Source: an uncultured Alphaproteobacteria bacterium | GTDB taxonomy: Bacteria; Pseudomonadota; Alphaproteobacteria; Methylaequorales; Methylaequoraceae | NCBI GenBank assembly: GCA_902536655.1 | Contig: CACAYF010000002.1 | Span: 76,123 to 140,122, forward strand | Direction of reading: 5' to 3' | Length of the DNA: 64,000 bases | In this document: in pieces, positions 59,063 to 64,000 of the stretch | How the letters are laid out: each line of letters begins with the position of its first letter | Numbering within the stretch: position 1 is the first letter of the stretch | Notes under the pieces: generated by a model | Seen by the model: the letters and a program-made list of their open reading frames with translations, nothing else | The model's database searches: none | What the model was told of the DNA's origin: nothing | Made by a program: the position numbers and the translations under genes

Positions 59063-59704
59063 TTAATTAACAGTGTTTATTTTTTCTATTTGCTCTAAAA
59101 AAGTAGAATCATCAAGCCTCATTAAAATTGAAGATCTATCATTTAATGCTGATTCTGGAGTTCGATGTAAAATTCCATGTTTTCCACCACGAAAAATTGC
59201 AACATCCCATTTATTTAAATATCTTATCGCTGATCTGTCTTTAATTATATTTTCATTTGGTTTTCCACTAATAAAAGCATTCCTGTCTGCAGCATTATCA
59301 GGGAGTAATTCTGTACCTTGTCCGGAATAAGTTACTAAACATCTATAAGGGACCATATCAACATGAAAACGTTTACAACCTCTCTCAGATCCCAACCAAA
59401 AACTTATTTTGTCTTTTTCTTGAAATAAACAAAACATTTTACAAATTTCACTCATATCATTTAACCAATTGTTAAAAAATATGTTTTTCCTAATTTTTGA
59501 TGGAATTTTTTCTTCTGTAAGTTTGATAATGTCATTTAAACTATTCTCCAATGAAACATAACCAGAAGTTGAAAAAGGAGTTAAGTTTAATCCACTAAAG
59601 AAAAGATTGAAATCCTCAGAAACTTGACGATTCAAAATCGCTAATTGATGGTTATTGTGTTTGAAATCCATTAAGGATTTTACATTTTCACAATTAAAAA
59701 TCAT
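59063..59704 (-). CDS. DUF1826 family protein
   Basis: CKRFHVD.VP.R.LVTY.G.GTE and ILHRTP motifs. Confidence 0.85.
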   Translation of the reverse strand: MIFNCENVKSLMDFKHNNHQLAILNRQVSEDFNLFFSGLNLTPFSTSGYVSLENSLNDIIKLTEEKIPSKIRKNIFFNNWLNDMSEICKMFCLFQEKDKISFWLGSERGCKRFHVDMVPYRCLVTYSGQGTELLPDNAADRNAFISGKPNENIIKDRSAIRYLNKWDVAIFRGGKHGILHRTPESALNDRSSILMRLDDSTFLEQIEKINTVN

Positions 59705-59707
59705 GAA

Positions 59708-60073
59708 TCAGAAGATAACTTCAGATAAAAAAATTGAACTATTTAGAGTATAAAGAATACTTGCGAGAATAAGATTGGTCTTAATTTTTTTATTAGTCGT
59801 ACTGCATTCTTGTTCAGTGCAACATTCATCATCTTGGCACTTTATTTTTTTATTATAAATTTCAAAAGAAATGATTAATAAAAATATAAGCGTTGTAATT
59901 GCAAAAAGATATGGTTCAGCTGCTTCTAATAACTCAGAATTTAAAAGGAGTGAGTCGATAATTAATGCATTTGAAGATAATGAAGCAAATGATAACGTTA
60001 AAGGCAAGCCACAGCATAACAGATGTGTTAGACCTATCCATAATAATGAGTATGAAGAGTAATACTTAAACAT
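59708..60073 (-). CDS. MerC-like small membrane protein
   Basis: THLLCCGLP in TM1, about 3 TMs, Cys-rich loop CQDDECCTEQEC. Confidence 0.65.
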   Translation of the reverse strand: MFKYYSSYSLLWIGLTHLLCCGLPLTLSFASLSSNALIIDSLLLNSELLEAAEPYLFAITTLIFLLIISFEIYNKKIKCQDDECCTEQECSTTNKKIKTNLILASILYTLNSSIFLSEVIF

Positions 60074-60079
60074 ATTTAA

Positions 60080-62044
60080 TTAATAGAATAGCTTTAAATT
60101 AAAATTAAAACTTCTACCAGGTAATTGAACTTGACCCTTCTTTGCCTCAAGATGATCACGACCAACTGTATTTAGAAGATTGGTTACACTAAACATTGCA
60201 TGGCCAGATAAATCTGAGTACATGAAATCTTTTGTAAGATCAAAATCTAATCTTGAATGACCACCTGTTCTTGTATAAAAAGGACCTGTGAATTCTTTAT
60301 CAAAATAATGATAATATTTAATATTAGTATCCCATTCCTCATTAATAAGTTGTAAACCAACATTTACTTTTGATTGTGGAATTCTAGTTATAGCCTTGTC
60401 ATTGGATGTTCTGTAACCCTTCAAGAATTCTCCTACAAAGTTAGCAAGGAAATCAAAATCATCGAATTTCGTTATGCCATACTGACCAGTTAATTCTACT
60501 CCAGTAAATAATGCATTATATTGATCGTGAATAACAACATTAAAATCTTCACCTTCAACAGTTTGTGTATTACCGTTTCTATCTGCAGCAATAAAATCAT
60601 TGATGTAATTATAATAAGCTTCAATTTTTAATTTATTTAGATTTTCATCATAATGATATCCAAGTGATACATTGTAAGAACTCTCTTTATCTAAGTTTGC
60701 GTTACCTGTCTCAACATTTTCAAGAGCATGATGAGGACCGTCTGCGAATAGTTCGACAGCATTCGGTGCTCTTTGCGTAAAATCAAAACCTAAAAATACA
60801 CTATTGTTTGGAATGATTTCTCTTTTGGCAGTGGAAGAAAATGCAACAGGGAAAAAACCTTTCTCATACTGTGTTGTTTTCAAATTTACGGATTCAATTC
60901 GACCACCAAGATCTAAATCAAATAAATCAAATTTTAACTTTTCGAGAGCAAATAAAGCAAAACTATTGGTCTTCGTTGGAGTTAAATGACCTTCCTCTGC
61001 TCCTGTTGCACCTTGATTTTTATTCATAAAATGAAAACCTATTAATCCTTCTTCATTTTGATTGAATAGAGATTTGTGATTCAGTGATGTTTTTATTTCA
61101 TATATGTCATTGAAAAATGTTATATTATGATTGTTACCATCGCCTGTTCTTTCAGCATGATTATATTCGGAGACAGTGCCTTCTAAGTTAAACTTTTCAA
61201 AGATTAAATAATTTAATGCCAGTGATGAATCAAAATTTATTGTATTTCTTGTAGGGTTAAGCGATGTCATATTTTCTTCACCTTCAGGACCAGGATTTTG
61301 ATACACAGCTTCAAGTTTGTCCAAAGAAACTCCAAAATGATTCTGACCATCATTGTATGTTATTCCAACGCCACCAGATGTCATGAACTTTGATGAATTT
61401 GCTTGCTTAGTTGAAACATTTGCTAAATCGTAAGGGCCCGCACTTACAAAACTTCCAGAACCTCTAACAGTAAAATTGTCCACAGATTTACCAAATTTTA
61501 ATGCGGTTCCCAACTCTCCACCTGAGGTCTTGTATCCAAAACCTAATTGGACGTTTTCGTCAGAAAGAGGCTTATCTACTGTAATTAAAGGGTTTATAAT
61601 GTTTACAACTCCAGCAAACCCATTGTTTCCATAAAGTAACGTACCGGGCCCTTTAATAATTTCTATTTTATCAATTAATAATGGATCATATCCAACAATA
61701 TGATCTTCACCAAATTCGGAAACATCACCTAGTGAAGAACTGTTTTGTAAAATTTTAACTCGCGAATTACCAAGACCCCTGATTATTGGACGTGATGCGT
61801 TACCCAGACCTTGTGAAGCAATTCCTGGTAAATCTTTGAGCATCTGACCAATAGAGTATTGTCTGCTTTTTTCTAGTTCATGAGAATCATATAAAATATT
61901 ACCCCTATCACTTTCATATTCGGTACTCGGCTTAATTTTAGATGTTATAAATACATCGGGTGCAACAAATATAGATTCTAATTTTTCAGCATTTACATTA
62001 GCTACTAACAATGCGGTCAAGACGAAGGTAACTATTTTATACAT
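60080..62044 (-). CDS. TonB-dependent receptor, ZnuD-like
   Basis: Signal peptide, plug (LPGI..RPIIRG, IEIIKGPGTLLYG), EDH, ELFADGPHHA, PGRSF..., aromatic C-terminus. Confidence 0.9.
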   Translation of the reverse strand: MYKIVTFVLTALLVANVNAEKLESIFVAPDVFITSKIKPSTEYESDRGNILYDSHELEKSRQYSIGQMLKDLPGIASQGLGNASRPIIRGLGNSRVKILQNSSSLGDVSEFGEDHIVGYDPLLIDKIEIIKGPGTLLYGNNGFAGVVNIINPLITVDKPLSDENVQLGFGYKTSGGELGTALKFGKSVDNFTVRGSGSFVSAGPYDLANVSTKQANSSKFMTSGGVGITYNDGQNHFGVSLDKLEAVYQNPGPEGEENMTSLNPTRNTINFDSSLALNYLIFEKFNLEGTVSEYNHAERTGDGNNHNITFFNDIYEIKTSLNHKSLFNQNEEGLIGFHFMNKNQGATGAEEGHLTPTKTNSFALFALEKLKFDLFDLDLGGRIESVNLKTTQYEKGFFPVAFSSTAKREIIPNNSVFLGFDFTQRAPNAVELFADGPHHALENVETGNANLDKESSYNVSLGYHYDENLNKLKIEAYYNYINDFIAADRNGNTQTVEGEDFNVVIHDQYNALFTGVELTGQYGITKFDDFDFLANFVGEFLKGYRTSNDKAITRIPQSKVNVGLQLINEEWDTNIKYYHYFDKEFTGPFYTRTGGHSRLDFDLTKDFMYSDLSGHAMFSVTNLLNTVGRDHLEAKKGQVQLPGRSFNFNLKLFY

Positions 62045-62081
62045 TGATTTTCCATTAAATAAGATGTTGATATTATTTTTA

Positions 62082-62096
62082 TGTTATATTATAACA
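62082..62096. promoter_or_regulatory. Zur box
   Basis: Perfect 7-1-7 palindrome TGTTATA-T-TATAACA matching the proteobacterial Zur consensus core; 37 bp upstream of the receptor; overlaps a candidate minus-strand promoter TTGACA (62112-07), N18, TATAAC. Confidence 0.82.
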
Positions 62097-62165
62097 CTTT
62101 CTATTGTGTCAACCCCAATCAAATAAAATCATTGATTTTTTTAAAACTTTTAATAATTTGTAAGC

Positions 62166-62501
62166 ATGAGATGTGTAAAATTTTTTGTTTTAAGTGTTTT
62201 AATACTTAGTCTGTCTAGTTTGACGATCTCAGCTAAAGTTATTTCGTATTGTTTAGATAAAAAATATTCTCAACTTAATGAAACAAATCATGTTCACTCA
62301 AACAAATCTTGTCATTCTCAATCAAATGATGTTGAAGACATATGCTTTAATTGTGAGTGTTATTATACTCAAATAAATACATACCAAGTTGACGATATTT
62401 TAGATGCTCATATCAACAATTCTTCATTTAATAACTTAAAGTTTACATTTGATTCCCTAAACCCTTTACTTAGACCACCCCCGCCAAAACTTTTTGCCTG
62501 A
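62166..62501 (+). CDS. Putative CutF/CruR(DUF2946)-like metal-sensing leader protein
   Basis: Signal peptide, HxH..CH, CxxCxC (C60, C63, C65), C-terminal LRPPPP four codons before the stop. Confidence 0.7.
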   Translation: MRCVKFFVLSVLILSLSSLTISAKVISYCLDKKYSQLNETNHVHSNKSCHSQSNDVEDICFNCECYYTQINTYQVDDILDAHINNSSFNNLKFTFDSLNPLLRPPPPKLFA

Positions 62502-62564
62502 TTTTATTTCAAAGTTTTGAGACAAATTTTGTCTTGAATTTATTTCTTATTATTAGGAGAAAAG
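62490..62564 (+). promoter_or_regulatory. Predicted anti-SD/SD RNA helix with a nested hairpin
   Basis: CTTTTTGCCTGAT (62490-62502) pairs with ATTAGGAGAAAAG (62552-62564); nested AGACAA-ATT-TTGTCT hairpin near 62516-62539. Confidence 0.6.
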
Positions 62565-63212
62565 ATGAAGATATTTTTATGCAAAATAGTTCTAGTGTGT
62601 ACTTTTATAGCCATAAAAGATATTAATGCTAGACCGATTTCATATCCTGGAGGCTGGACATTAATGCAGGCAAATGATTTTATTAAACATAGTTTTCATT
62701 TGCATTATAGTCCATCAATTGATTATTCAATAGGTTATAGAGCAGCATATTGGAGAGAAAAAGAATGGCAATTTCATGGACTTCAATTAAATTATCTCAT
62801 AAAAAGACTAAATAAACCTAAGTCGCAAACAAATTTTTATTTAAGGAACGGAATAGGTTTAGCAACTAGTAATTATGAAGCTTTTGAAAATAAATTTGAA
62901 CCATCCCTTTTCACAGGCATTTTATTTGATTGGGAAGATAGAAGGTTTTTTACAAGTTATCAGAATCAAGCTAATCATGCATCTTCGATAGATAAATTTT
63001 TTTCACAACAATTTAGAATCGGAGTGGCTCCTTATTTGGCTGAATATGGATATTTACATACTTGGATAATGCTTCAAGCCAACCATATGCCTGGAAGTAG
63101 TAAAAACTTGACATTTACTCCAATGTTAAGAGTTTTTAAAGGGGATTATTTGGCAGAGTTAGGTCTTAATAACTACAAAGACTTTATGTTTAACTTCATT
63201 AAAAGATTTTAG
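62565..63212 (+). CDS. Hypothetical exported protein, probable small outer-membrane beta-barrel
   Basis: AGGAGA SD, signal peptide ending INA, aromatic-rich alternating strands, C-terminal Phe (FNFIKRF). Confidence 0.7.
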   Translation: MKIFLCKIVLVCTFIAIKDINARPISYPGGWTLMQANDFIKHSFHLHYSPSIDYSIGYRAAYWREKEWQFHGLQLNYLIKRLNKPKSQTNFYLRNGIGLATSNYEAFENKFEPSLFTGILFDWEDRRFFTSYQNQANHASSIDKFFSQQFRIGVAPYLAEYGYLHTWIMLQANHMPGSSKNLTFTPMLRVFKGDYLAELGLNNYKDFMFNFIKRF

Positions 63213-63222
63213 AGGAAAAGAA

Positions 63223-63534
63223 ATGAAAAAAACTATTATCTATTTGTTTATTTTACAATTTGTATTTTTTAACAGCAGTAAAATTCTTTCGGATGAACAA
63301 TACAATGGTGATATTTTGCACGTATATGTTAATGGACTTGTATGTGATTTTTGTGCTCGTTCAATTGAAAAAATATTTTCAAAACAAAAATCAGTTGCAG
63401 CTATAACAGTGAATTTAAAAAATATGTTGATTACTATTAATTTTAAAGAAAATCAAAAATTAAGTTATGAAAAAATCACTGAAATGATTAAGGATTCGGG
63501 TTATGACGTCAGAGAAATAAAAAATGTTAAGTAA
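63223..63534 (+). CDS. Exported heavy-metal-associated (HMA) domain protein, MerP/CopZ-like
   Basis: Signal-like N-terminus, VNGLVCDFCARSIEK, C-terminal DSGY; GAGGA SD. Confidence 0.88.
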   Translation: MKKTIIYLFILQFVFFNSSKILSDEQYNGDILHVYVNGLVCDFCARSIEKIFSKQKSVAAITVNLKNMLITINFKENQKLSYEKITEMIKDSGYDVREIKNVK

Positions 63535-63907
63535 TTTCTATAAAGAATTGTTTGCACCAATATTAAGTTTATTTACAAGTTTAAGTACGCTAGTTTGTTG
63601 TGCATTACCAGCTCTGCTTGTGACTGTTGGATTAGGTACAACTTTAGTTAGTATTGTATCAATATTTCCGTGGATTGTTGTTCTATCAAAATATAAATTA
63701 TACATCTTTTTATTTGCAGGTTTTATGTTGGCTTTATCATGTTATATGGCATGGAGAAGAAATAATTCTTCATGTCCAGCAAACCCAACAGAAGCTAAAA
63801 TATGTTTGAAATTAAGGTCAACTAATTACGTTATATTAACTTTTTCGTTTGTAGTTTATATCACAGGTTTTTTCTTTGCTTTTTTAGCTGACTTAATTTT
63901 TTACTAA
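63524..63907 (+). CDS. MerT-like metal transport membrane protein
   Basis: STLVCCALP in TM1, about 3 TMs, loop CP......IC; overlaps the HMA gene. Confidence 0.75.
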   Translation: MLSNFYKELFAPILSLFTSLSTLVCCALPALLVTVGLGTTLVSIVSIFPWIVVLSKYKLYIFLFAGFMLALSCYMAWRRNNSSCPANPTEAKICLKLRSTNYVILTFSFVVYITGFFFAFLADLIFY

Positions 63908-64000
63908 ATAGTCTTCTTTTAAAAATATAATAAAAAGTTAATTTATTAAAATTTAGGCTAAAAAGTTTTAATATAAAAAAGTATCTAGTTATGCTTGATT

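What the first reader, a model, noticed from the sequence alone, without database searches (positions are those of the whole stretch)
62166..62501. Candidate metal-sensing ribosome-arrest leader protein (CutF/CruR-like) heading an uncharacterised operon
Seen: 111 aa with a Sec-type signal, HVH..CH, C60-x2-C63-x-C65, about 38 residues of spacer, then R103-PPPP and a stop four codons later; four Pro codons stand out in such AT-rich DNA. Known: Bordetella CruR (DUF2946; CxxC plus RAPP) and Rhodobacter CutF (Cys motif plus Pro-rich C-terminus) are exported upstream ORFs that control the downstream copper gene through ribosome stalling. The spacer is roughly one exit-tunnel length, so the Cys motif would be emerging as the ribosome reaches the prolines. 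Inference: a divergent member controlling a target type (beta-barrel/HMA/MerT-like) that I do not know to be described for this mechanism. The metal and direction of control are unknown.
Basis: partly seen in the sequence, partly recalled or inferred. Interest (0 to 1): 0.85.

Follow-up and report, generated by a model that had tools for sequence, protein, structure and literature searches.

The report
Proline-tailed metal-sensor leader gene with RBS-masking helix
A small exported cysteine-rich protein gene that ends in a proline run heads a widespread four-gene metal-transport cassette, and its last codons pair with and hide the next gene's ribosome-binding site, so it most likely acts as a translation-pause switch like the known copper sensors CutF and CopL.

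Summary
ORF 62166-62501 encodes 111 aa with a signal-like N-terminus, H42/H44, C49-H50, C60xxC63xC65, R103-PPPP and four more codons.

It is a real, conserved gene. A homologous ORF (signal, Cys, PCH, CxxCxC, 36-46 variable residues, PP, mostly 4 residues, stop) lies directly upstream of the 215-aa gene in 72 of 80 related loci from several phyla. It heads a cassette of leader, 12-stranded outer-membrane barrel, periplasmic HMA protein and MerT-like protein.

The leader's last codons plus stop codon pair with the barrel gene's Shine-Dalgarno in 63 of 69 distinct loci, with covariation. Modelling 51 loci, the site opens when the ribosome's P site reaches the PP motif.

It matches neither Pfam DUF2946 nor NCBIfam CopL above cut-off. 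The family is profile-related to CopL (probability 96.9%) and meets three of the four published operational 'CutF-like' criteria; the signal peptide was judged only by eye.

Stalling, the metal and the direction of control are untested. A Zur-type box suggests zinc here, but only in this lineage (8 of 72 loci). Earlier notes of this scan found the same cassette on other genomes.

Verdict: new member of a known kind, with good comparative support.

The parts
62166..62501 (+). Leader ORF, 111 aa including the stop: an exported Cys/His-rich protein with a PPPP tail
   Evidence: homologues. An HMM built without the window's clade finds it as the only hit among 5790 genome ORFs (E 3e-14; E 6.6e-8 without all AT-rich relatives).
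62166..62234 (+). Signal-peptide-like N-terminus (residues 1-23, I-S-A before K24)
   Evidence: Read from the sequence. AxA consensus in family alignment A5. AF2 helix with pLDDT about 90 for residues 1-20. No SignalP run.
62310..62315 (+). C49-H50, the family's (M)PCH motif; C49 is invariant in 53 of 53 sequences
   Evidence: A5; A2
62343..62360 (+). Cys cluster C60-F-N-C63-E-C65 (family CxxCxC, often followed by xHC)
   Evidence: The distance from the last Cys to the terminal PP is 36-46 residues in 67 of 69 leaders, median 38.
62475..62486 (+). P104-P107 (CCA CCC CCG CCA), the proposed pause site; the last two Pro are invariant in the family
   Evidence: The third codon positions of the PP codons vary among loci, so selection acts on the amino acid. 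Rare-codon figures.
62490..62502 (+). 5' arm of the SD-masking helix: codons L109-F110-A111, the stop TGA and one further base (the anti-SD)
   Evidence: MFE and centroid folds (window:62484-62575, -19.2 kcal/mol, z -2.9). Covariation.
62516..62538 (+). Internal hairpin (10 bp) in the loop between the two arms
   Evidence: Its core AGACAA/TTGTCT is kept in 8 of 8 same-genus loci. It was not scored as a terminator (0 found).
62552..62564 (+). 3' arm of the helix. It contains the SD AGGAG (62555-62559) of the 215-aa gene and abuts its ATG at 62565.
62565..63212 (+). 215-aa gene: signal peptide plus a 12-stranded outer-membrane beta-barrel, no Pfam or NCBIfam family
   Evidence: AF2 pLDDT 88.6, 12 strands; Foldseek finds only generic 12-stranded and other outer-membrane barrels, TM about 0.4-0.5; 263 homologues.
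63223..63534 (+). Periplasmic HMA (MerP/CopZ-like) protein, 103 aa, with C41-x-x-C44
   Evidence: Pfam HMA E 3.8e-10; NCBIfam CopZ/MerP models below their cut-offs; present in 79 of 80 related loci.
63524..63907 (+). MerT-like inner-membrane protein, 127 aa, with a CC pair in the first helix; overlaps the HMA gene by 11 nt
   Evidence: Weak MerT/MerTP matches (E 0.02-0.03); present in 75 of 80 related loci.
62082..62096 (.). Zur-box-like palindrome TGTTATATTATAACA between the divergent ZnuD-like receptor gene and the leader
   Evidence: Only 2 GTTATnnnATAAC sites occur in the genome, and this is the only one with the extended TGTTATAWTATAACA core. The consensus GAAATGTTATA-N-TATAACATTTC is quoted in PMC4219657 (passages read). 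Found upstream of the leader in only 8 of 72 loci.

Best explanation
The ORF is the cis-acting leader gene of a self-contained four-gene metal-relay cassette: leader, 12-stranded outer-membrane barrel, periplasmic HMA protein, MerT-like inner-membrane protein.

Shown by comparison: the gene is real and conserved. Its last sense codons plus its stop codon form the 5' arm of a helix whose 3' arm is the SD of the barrel gene. The invariant PP lies a fixed four codons before the stop. The Cys cluster lies a fixed 38 or so residues before the PP.

Inferred: with no ribosome at the leader's end, the barrel gene's SD is hidden. A ribosome with the second Pro (or the next codon) in its P site holds the anti-SD in its mRNA entry channel, so the SD is free for as long as that ribosome dwells there. 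The PPPP run, which uses the two rarest Pro codons, prolongs that dwell.

Further inferred, by analogy with CutF, CruR and CopL: a thiophilic metal bound by the nascent chain's Cys/His groups lengthens or shortens the pause and so sets translation of the barrel, HMA and MerT-like genes. At the pause, C60-C65 would be about 40 residues from the peptidyl-transferase centre, near the tunnel exit. C29 and C49-H50 would be further out.

In this lineage, transcription is probably also under Zur, through the shared divergent promoter region. The metal (Zn, Cu or another soft metal) and the sign of control are not known.
For: (1) Real gene and family. 36 homologues were found, 33 of them 111 aa, plus four distant ones. 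HMMs built without the window's clade recover the ORF as the only hit among 5790 genome ORFs (E 3e-14 and 6.6e-8).

(2) Position. A leader-like ORF lies directly upstream of the barrel gene in 72 of 80 loci. One of the 8 misses is cut by a contig end. The intergenic gap is 32-139 nt. HMA follows in 79 of 80 loci and the MerT-like gene in 75 of 80.

(3) Fixed rulers. The tail after the last PP is 4 residues in 55 of 72. The distance from the last Cys to PP is 36-46 in 67 of 69 and exactly 38 in 31 of 69, although the spacer sequence is not conserved.

(4) SD-masking helix.
- In MFE folds the SD window pairs with the leader's 3' end in 67 of 73 loci, which is 63 of 69 distinct sequences. Shuffling the 5' arm gives a mean of 30.4 and a maximum of 40 over 40 shuffles.
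- The median duplex energy is -11.8 kcal/mol (z -3.06). In 52 of 69 loci no more than 5% of shuffles do as well. A control window 60 nt upstream gives 2 of 69 and z 0.11.
- The stop codon covaries with the triplet before GGAG: UAA with UUA 18 against UCA 1, and UGA with UCA 19 against UUA 2.
- The count of structure pairs on 47 sequences gives 82.6% paired, against 73.3% for shuffles (0 of 500 reach it) and 45-54% for slid partners. The pair at the second stop-codon base is AU 23 and GC 11.

(5) Geometry. In 51 loci with the 4-codon tail, the modelled unpaired probability of the SD is 0.05 without a ribosome and 0.02-0.04 with the P site upstream of PP. It rises to 0.33-0.45 at the first and second Pro (15-nt offset) or 0.17-0.44 at the second Pro and the next codon (11-nt offset).

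(6) The leader evolves faster than its neighbours: 62-89% identity against 86-97% for the barrel, HMA and MerT-like genes in 7 same-genus loci. AF2 gives no confident fold for the mature part (pLDDT 61.5).

(7) The genes flanking the cassette are unrelated in the 19 flanks examined, 10 upstream and 9 downstream of the cassette; a single LysR-type gene lay upstream of one locus, and no regulator recurred.

(8) Relatives with experiments. The family is profile-related to CopL (probability 96.9%, E 1.4e-10, 107 columns). PMC9973294 (passages read) reports that copL acts in cis on copA, that CutF needs its signal, Cys motif and proline tail, and that a stem-loop shields the cutO SD. The preprint 10.1101/2025.02.05.636593 (passages) reports stalling at the CutF PPP.

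(9) EF-P is encoded in the genome.

(10) Contigs from marine RNA libraries of 3 studies bridge the leader's 3' end and the downstream genes.
Against: No experiment or ribosome-profiling data shows a pause here. Any ribosome that simply reads to the stop codon would also open the helix, so plain translational coupling explains the RNA evidence without regulated arrest.

In the window itself the thermodynamic model does not predict opening. SD unpaired probability goes from about 0.2 to about 0.05, because a local hairpin (62544-62561, -4.2 kcal/mol) can recapture the SD once the long-range helix (-10.3 kcal/mol) is removed. The window's allele (GCC TGA instead of TCC TAA) also gives the weakest long-range duplex among the 7 same-genus loci compared (-11.5 to -14.6 in the others; the more distant L046 and L049 are weaker still).

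Shuffled 5' arms still reach the lax pairing criterion in about 30 of 69 loci. Many covarying loci are close kin: most UGA/UCA cases come from one group of MAGs. The tested helix was derived from one of the sequences, which favours it over the slid controls.

PP followed by K or R is not, to my recollection, among the strongest EF-P-dependent stall motifs, and most family members have PP, not PPP. 7 of 79 testable loci work without a leader. No metal-binding evidence exists. Low AF2 confidence is common for small Cys-rich metal proteins, so it does not exclude a folded periplasmic protein.
Confidence: 0.6

Rival explanations
1. Plain translational coupling plus a genuine periplasmic protein. 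The 111-aa product is a mature exported metal-binding protein (chaperone or relay partner of the barrel, HMA and MerT-like proteins). The helix only ties the barrel gene's translation to the leader's, with no regulated pause. The PP tail would be structural or a processing signal.
For: Cys/His positions, a signal peptide and an AxA site are conserved, as in true periplasmic metal proteins. Any terminating ribosome would open the helix (geometry: the SD stays open from the PP through to the stop). NCBIfam calls the related CopL family 'metal-binding regulatory protein'. CzcI-type relatives lack the proline motif (PMC9973294, passage).
Against: The Cys-to-PP distance is fixed (36-46 residues) while the sequence between is unconserved. 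PP is invariant at a fixed 4 codons from the stop, and the PP codons vary synonymously. The gene evolves faster than its neighbours. There is no confident fold. 7 of 79 loci do without the leader. CutF and CruR are reported to be barely detectable or degraded after export.
Confidence: 0.22
2. CruR-type transcriptional attenuation. The ribosome paused at the prolines blocks Rho (or an intrinsic terminator in the 63-nt spacer), and metal-dependent release lets transcription stop before the barrel gene.
For: CruR works this way in Bordetella (PMC9426467, abstract and passages). A conserved hairpin at 62516-62538 is followed by a U-rich stretch.
Against: The spacer is only 63 nt and AT-rich, with no C-rich tract. 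The terminator scan found 0 sites. The hairpins in the loop are not followed by U-tracts in other lineages (alignment). The covarying feature is the SD-masking helix, which points to control of initiation. RNA-library contigs run across the junction (weak evidence, as contigs cannot show a single transcript).
Confidence: 0.07
3. There is no cis-regulatory role at all. The helix is a by-product of a CU-rich gene end meeting a GA-rich SD, and the ORF is an ordinary small secreted protein.
For: Shuffled 5' arms of the same composition still pair with the SD window in about 30 of 69 loci under the lax criterion. In the window the fold's z-score over a longer stretch is only -0.9 to -1.5.
Against: There is stop-codon/SD-flank covariation. 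The duplex z-score is -3.06, against 0.11 for a control window. Slid-partner controls give 45-54% against 82.6%. The terminal Leu-Ser codons (CUC UCC) read as an anti-SD in most lineages.
Confidence: 0.05

Closest known systems
CopL of Xanthomonas / Stenotrophomonas (NCBIfam NF033807, CopL family metal-binding regulatory protein; leader of copAB)
   Same: It is the only family with detectable sequence relationship. 16 of 53 leader-family members match NF033807 at E 0.01 or better, the best examined at 32.1 bits against the 40-bit cut-off, and the profile-profile probability is 96.9% over 107 columns. The layout is the same: signal, Cys/His, Cys cluster, about 40 variable residues, then PP close to the stop (RPPI plus 1-2 residues). 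It sits first in a metal operon that includes an outer-membrane barrel (CopB). It is reported to act only in cis (PMC9973294 passage). In one CopL locus (L120) the stop-codon region also pairs with the next gene's SD.
   Different: The window ORF itself has no NF033807 hit at E up to 1. The tail is PP[KR]xxS (4 residues), not RPPI[AG]. The downstream genes are a 215-aa barrel, an HMA protein and a MerT-like protein, not a multicopper oxidase and CopB. The metal here is unknown, and a Zur-type box lies upstream.
CutF of Rhodobacter capsulatus (cutFOG; 'CutF-like' proteins of Ozturk et al. 2021 and 2023)
   Same: Both are small exported proteins with a Cys motif and a C-terminal PPP (CutF ends GPPPRL). 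A stem-loop hides the next gene's SD and is proposed to be melted by the stalled ribosome. [quoted passage not shown] The signal peptide was judged only by eye.
   Different: No sequence similarity was tested directly, as no CutF sequence was available to me. The Cys motif is CxxCxC plus an upstream PCH, rather than CxxxC. Here the 5' arm of the helix lies inside the leader's last codons and stop codon, with a fixed 4-codon distance from PP. The target is a Mer-like relay instead of a multicopper oxidase.
CruR of Bordetella pertussis (DUF2946, PF11162)
   Same: Signal peptide, CxxC, a fixed spacer between the Cys motif and a C-terminal proline motif, and a few residues before the stop. It lies upstream of a metal-uptake gene, and its neighbour is a TonB-dependent receptor.
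   Different: There is no PF11162 match and the profile-profile probability is 0.15-4%. The motif is RAPP rather than RPPPP or PP[KR]. The spacer is 44-46 in 13 of the first 17 DUF2946 sequences measured, against 37-39 here. CruR acts through Rho across a 162-nt G+C-rich spacer. Here the receptor gene is divergent, not downstream.
MerT/MerP mercury uptake relay of mer operons (for the cassette the leader controls)
   Same: A periplasmic HMA protein with CxxC, plus a small inner-membrane protein with a CC pair in its first helix.
   Different: Matches to MerT and MerP models are far below their cut-offs. No MerA or MerR is linked. There is an added 12-stranded outer-membrane barrel, and a leader gene in place of a transcription factor.

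Membership tests
DUF2946 (Pfam PF11162; CruR) | Match to the PF11162 profile above 23.7 bits | tested here: not met
   No hit at E up to 1 for the window ORF. No hit in the whole genome at E up to 10. 0 of 10 diverse leader-family members hit it, 1 of the 5 leader-family members tested had a 13.9-bit sub-threshold hit.
DUF2946 (Pfam PF11162; CruR) | Conserved CXXC motif | tested here: met
   C60-F-N-C63. C60 and C63 are nearly invariant in A5.
DUF2946 (Pfam PF11162; CruR) | C-terminal RAPP motif about three residues before the end | tested here: not met
   The window has R-P-P-P-P-K-L-F-A. The family consensus is xPP[KR]xxS. The 30 DUF2946 sequences collected end in RAPP or RA[SG]P plus 2-10 residues.
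DUF2946 (Pfam PF11162; CruR) | About 45 residues between CXXC and the proline motif | tested here: not met
   There are 39 residues between C63 and R103. The family's last-Cys-to-PP distance has a median of 38. DUF2946 gives 44-46 in 13 of the first 17 sequences measured before the script stopped.
CutF-like proteins (operational definition of PMC9973294) | [quoted passage not shown] | tested here: met
   111 aa, with PPPP at residues 104-107.
CutF-like proteins (operational definition of PMC9973294) | SignalP-predicted Sec (SPI) signal peptide | tested here: inconclusive
   The n-region, h-region and I-S-A site were judged by eye, and the family has an AxA consensus. No predictor was available.
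CutF-like proteins (operational definition of PMC9973294) | [quoted passage not shown] | tested here: met
   The gap is 63 nt, 62502-62564.
CutF-like proteins (operational definition of PMC9973294) | Reached by the authors' jackhmmer search, or a member of one of their 29 clusters | not testable with these tools
The main text names no HMA or MerT neighbours (0 occurrences).
CopL family (NCBIfam NF033807) | Match above the 40-bit cut-off | tested here: not met
   The window ORF has no hit at E up to 1. 16 of 53 family members hit at E 0.01 or better; the best examined scored 32.1 bits, below the cut-off.
CopL family (NCBIfam NF033807) | Profile-level homology to CopL sequences | tested here: met
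   hhalign of 42 leaders against 9 CopL-model hits (7 above the NF033807 cut-off, 2 below): probability 96.9%, E 1.4e-10, 107 columns. With all 53 leaders: 95.1%, 43 columns.
Regulatory ribosome-arrest peptides (SecM, MifM, VemP, CutF type) | Demonstrated elongation arrest at a defined codon | not testable with these tools
   Needs toeprinting, Ribo-seq or pulse labelling. Only the geometry could be modelled.
Regulatory ribosome-arrest peptides (SecM, MifM, VemP, CutF type) | An mRNA structure that masks the downstream SD and lies within reach of the arrested ribosome | tested here: met
   For the window itself, with the caveat that a weak alternative hairpin exists.

The most novel reading that the evidence does not exclude
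The leader, barrel, HMA and MerT-like cassette is a regulator-free mobile module found in several phyla. Its only sensor is the nascent leader chain, built as a double ruler: Cys cluster, about 38 residues, PP, 4 codons, then the anti-SD and stop codon. In the window's marine lineage it sits under a Zur box beside a ZnuD-like receptor and would respond to zinc (or another non-copper soft metal). That would make it the first zinc-responsive arrest leader and the control element of an undescribed Mer-like uptake route in abundant streamlined marine bacteria.
Probability: 0.15. Interest if true: 0.8.

Novelty: new member of a known kind. Interest (0 to 1): 0.55.

Why it matters
CutF, CruR and CopL are the only studied examples of metal sensing by a nascent exported peptide, and their rules are still debated. 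It is unclear where the metal is sensed, what EF-P does, and whether the metal induces or relieves stalling.

This subfamily offers a natural data set of about 70 diverged loci. In them the three functional distances are visibly fixed and the SD-masking helix covaries, even with the identity of the stop codon. That gives precise predictions that can be tested by mutagenesis.

It also attaches this type of control to an undescribed but widespread four-gene envelope metal relay that in most cases has no linked transcription factor, including in genome-streamlined marine bacteria. If the mechanism holds, leaders of this type could be found systematically by searching for 'PP, a few codons, anti-SD and stop, paired to the next SD', rather than by weak protein similarity.

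Tried and rejected
DUF2946 membership was rejected:
- Pfam scans found nothing and a whole-genome search found nothing.
- hhalign against 30 DUF2946 sequences taken from 30 genomes gave probability 0.15% with 23 close family sequences and 4% with 53.

The search for related loci with the distant-homologue alignment A2 failed for lack of a conserved stretch. I used the barrel protein alignment A3 instead.

The terminator scan of 61950-62650 found 0 sites. The promoter scan found 2 matches against 5.3 expected from shuffles, so no promoter can be claimed.

AF2 of the leader with 53 sequences gave pLDDT 61.5 and pTM 0.28, so there is no usable fold and no fold search was made. Foldseek of the barrel model returned only generic outer-membrane barrels (best E 7.5e-4, TM about 0.4-0.5), so no specific relative emerged.

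The ribosome-position model applied to the window alone did not show SD opening. This is explained by a weak local hairpin and is listed as evidence against.

Pfam scans of 10 upstream and 9 downstream neighbours of the cassette, plus the RND gene upstream of L108, found no recurring gene or regulator. The Zur-like box is absent upstream of the leader in 64 of 72 loci.

Marine RNA-library contigs leave 62000-62131 uncovered in the 4 runs laid. This cannot be read as a transcript start.

Literature:
- Searches for CopL mechanism gave nothing beyond the CutF, CruR and CopL papers.
- A search for MerT-like/MerP-like cassettes gave nothing on this cassette.

The look-up of earlier notes near this window returned nothing.

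Complex prediction, the protein atlas and the third homologue search were not used.
Full report
**Observation.** The ORF is exactly as described: ATG 62166, TGA 62499-62501, 111 aa. It has a positively charged start, a hydrophobic stretch and I-S-A at 21-23. Then come H42, H44, C49-H50 and C60-F-N-C63-E-C65, 37 residues, R103, P104-P107 (CCA CCC CCG CCA), K-L-F-A and the stop. Only three codons are open upstream of the ATG.

The genome has 30% G+C. PPPP occurs in 10 of 1412 ORFs of 100 aa or more, and PPP within the last ten residues in 2. CCC and CCG are the rarest Pro codons, at 9.5% and 7.3%.

**Conservation.** A word-indexed search found 36 homologues at 59-91% identity, 33 of them exactly 111 aa and unnamed. 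An exhaustive HMMER search added four proteins of 111-114 aa at 28-33% identity (22-28% in the MAFFT alignment A2). Across these, C29, C49, H50, C60, C65 and P105-P107 are invariant, and the tail after PPP is always four residues.

Within the window's order the gene was found in 8 of 42 genomes, counting the window's own, all in one genus. In the 7 same-genus loci the leader is 62-89% identical. The barrel, HMA and MerT-like genes beside it are 86-97% identical, so the leader evolves faster.

**The cassette.**
- The next gene (62565-63212) has no Pfam or NCBIfam family but has 263 homologues. AF2 models it as a 12-stranded barrel behind a signal peptide (pLDDT 88.6). Foldseek finds only generic outer-membrane barrels.
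- It is followed by a signal-bearing HMA protein (Pfam E 3.8e-10) and a MerT-like membrane protein with weak matches.
- A scan of species-representative genomes with the barrel alignment gave 199 confirmed loci, of which 80 were returned. They come from MAGs and single-cell genomes labelled Alphaproteobacteria, Rickettsiales, Micavibrio, Thermodesulfobacteriota, Dadabacteria, Gammaproteobacteria, Bdellovibrionales and Spirochaetia.
- HMA follows the barrel in 79 of 80 and the MerT-like gene in 75 of 80. The ZnuD-like receptor, the second MerT-like gene and DUF1826 of the window accompany it in only 8-9 of 80.
- Genes flanking the cassette are unrelated from lineage to lineage. They include a protease, a luciferase-like oxidoreductase, an MmeI-type restriction enzyme, a relaxase, a LysR regulator and an RND pump.

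**The leader family.** In 72 of the 80 loci an ORF of about 110-130 aa lies 32-139 nt upstream of the barrel gene on the same strand. One of the 8 misses is cut by a contig end.

Its layout is: signal peptide with AxA, a Cys just after it, (M)PCH, CxxCxC (often followed by xHC), a variable stretch, then xPP[KR]xxS and the stop.
- The tail after the last PP has 4 residues in 55 of 72.
- The distance from the last Cys to that PP is 36-46 residues in 67 of 69, and exactly 38 in 31, although the intervening sequence is not conserved.
- The third positions of the Pro codons vary freely.

HMMs built from these leaders without the window's clade, and without all its AT-rich relatives, find the window ORF as the only hit among 5790 ORFs of its genome (E 3e-14 and 6.6e-8). 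The window ORF is therefore a true member.

**The RNA helix.** In the window, 62490-62502 (codons 109-111, the stop and one base) pairs with 62552-62564. That 3' arm holds the SD AGGAG and abuts the ATG. A conserved 10-bp hairpin sits in the loop (-19.2 kcal/mol, z -2.9 for 62484-62575).

The same arrangement recurs across the loci:
- The SD window pairs with the leader's end in 67 of 73 MFE folds. This is 63 of 69 distinct sequences, against a mean of 30.4 and a maximum of 40 when the 5' arm is shuffled.
- Duplex energy between the two 22-nt arms has a median of -11.8 kcal/mol and z -3.06. In 52 of 69 loci at most 5% of shuffles do as well. A control window 60 nt upstream in the same ORF gives z 0.11 and 2 of 69.
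- The final codons are typically CUC UCC (Leu-Ser), which is an anti-SD. This explains the conserved terminal Ser.
- The stop codon itself is paired and covaries: UAA faces UUA (18, against 1 UCA) and UGA faces UCA (19, against 2 UUA) when anchored on the SD (MFE partners).
- On a MAFFT alignment of 47 sequences, 82.6% of cells in the 10-pair helix are paired. Column shuffles give 73.3% (0 of 500 reach the observed value) and slid partners give 45-54%. 8 of the 10 pairs change on both sides.

Caveats: many loci are close kin, and the helix was defined on one of the sequences.

**Geometry.** I removed the RNA held by a ribosome, up to 11 or 15 nt beyond the first base of the P-site codon. These offsets are recalled from the ribosome-footprint and helicase literature, not taken from a call. 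I then computed how often the SD core is unpaired in 51 loci with the 4-codon tail.
- Without a ribosome the value is 0.05.
- With the P site anywhere upstream of PP it is 0.02-0.04.
- It jumps to 0.33 and 0.45 at the first and second Pro (15-nt offset), or to 0.17 and 0.44 at the second Pro and the following codon (11-nt offset). It then stays there.

The invariant PP therefore marks the first ribosome position that frees the SD.

The window itself does not show this in the model (about 0.2 falling to about 0.05). A local hairpin, 62544-62561 at -4.2 kcal/mol, can recapture the SD once the -10.3 kcal/mol long-range duplex is lost. Close relatives have stronger long-range duplexes (-11.5 to -14.6) and weaker local hairpins (-0.6 to -2.1).

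**Family relations.**
- Pfam DUF2946 does not match the window ORF, its genome, or 10 diverse leaders. hhalign against 30 DUF2946 sequences gives 0.15-4% probability.
- NCBIfam CopL_fam matches 16 of 53 leaders at E 0.01 or better, the best examined at 32.1 bits against the 40-bit cut-off, but not the window ORF.
- hhalign of 42 leaders against 9 CopL-model hits (7 above the cut-off) gives 96.9% probability over 107 columns. CopL proteins have the same layout and end in RPPI plus one or two residues.
- The leader HMM also picks up other proteins with a signal, Cys/His residues and a PP tail. It hits 20 of 301 sampled genomes of the phylum, only 2 of which carry the barrel cassette. One of those ORFs (in G101) also passes the DUF2946 cut-off. 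These families therefore form a continuum.
- Ozturk et al. [quoted passage not shown] Their definition uses size, a C-terminal PP, a signal peptide and a same-strand downstream gene. The window ORF meets the three of these that I could test; the signal peptide was judged only by eye. Their main text lists efflux-pump, TonB-like, PCuAC, HupE/UreJ and Nos neighbours, but no HMA or MerT.

**Mechanism.** The comparative results above are shown. The rest is inference by analogy with three studied cases:
- CutF: stalling at PPP, a stem-loop over the cutO SD, and a requirement for the signal and the Cys motif.
- CruR: spacing between CXXC and RAPP matters, and copper relieves arrest.
- CopL: acts only in cis.

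I propose that dwell time at PPPP-K sets the window for 30S binding at the barrel gene's SD, and that metal binding by the nascent Cys/His groups tunes that dwell. EF-P is encoded in the genome.

The metal and the sign of control are open. A perfect Zur-type core, TGTTATATTATAACA (62082-62096), lies between the divergent ZnuD-like receptor gene and the leader, and it is the only such site in the genome. The consensus is quoted in PMC4219657. Three Fur-family genes are present. However, this box accompanies the leader in only 8 of 72 loci. CopL relatives respond to copper.

**Expression.** Contigs from four marine RNA libraries (four studies), 90-99% alike, cover the cassette. One spans 62418-63950, one spans 62435-63395 and one spans 62189-62539. 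This fits co-transcription but cannot prove a single transcript, a start or a pause.

**Novelty.** Earlier notes of this scan (e1-3583179, e1-1067080, e1-3340810, e1-1431501) describe the same four-gene cassette on other genomes and also read its first gene as a sensor leader. These are AI notes. I reached the reading through my own tests and add the covariation, ruler and geometry results.

In the literature I searched this cassette and this subfamily are not described in the main texts. The kind of element is known.

Noticed in passing
window 59063-62044 (- strand): The divergent operon holds a ZnuD-like TonB-dependent receptor (NF038289 E 2.6e-66, below its cut-off), a second MerT-like 121-aa membrane protein with a CC pair, and a DUF1826 protein. 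It accompanies the cassette in only 8-9 of 80 loci.
   Followed up: partly
L047:3670-4003: A relative whose receptor is 87% identical keeps the Zur-type box but has no leader ORF between the receptor and the barrel gene, and the barrel gene's SD there is weak. This looks like natural loss of the leader.
   Followed up: partly
L108:835-4633: Here the barrel, HMA and MerT-like genes follow an RND (AcrB/CusA-type) pump gene directly, without a leader. This hints at an efflux or detoxification context in some lineages.
   Followed up: no
L120 (CopL locus of G192), 18 nt before the copL stop to the next gene's ATG: The copL stop-codon region (CUAAGCGUC) pairs with GACGCUUGG, which overlaps the SD-like GGAG of the downstream multicopper-oxidase-like gene. 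This is the same design as in the window's family. The other six CopL loci could not be judged because the gene starts are uncertain.
   Followed up: partly
G101:C1:1322546-1322914 (L141): One ORF passes the DUF2946 cut-off (32.7 bits) and also matches the leader-family model A5 (25 bits, E 3.2e-5). It links the families.
   Followed up: no
window 62496 and 62500: The window has GCC TGA (Ala, UGA). Same-genus loci and the RNA-library contigs have TCC TAA (Ser, UAA). Both differences weaken the SD-masking helix, giving a G-A mismatch and a G-U wobble.
   Followed up: partly
window 62555-62559 and genome-wide: By a crude count, only 106 of 944 long ORFs in this genome have an SD-like motif upstream. 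The strong AGGAG of the barrel gene is therefore unusual here, and the leader itself has no SD.
   Followed up: no
L105:1919-3520 and L076:646-3444: In two lineages the cassette lies next to a relaxase gene or an MmeI-type restriction-modification gene. This fits horizontal mobility of the module.
   Followed up: no
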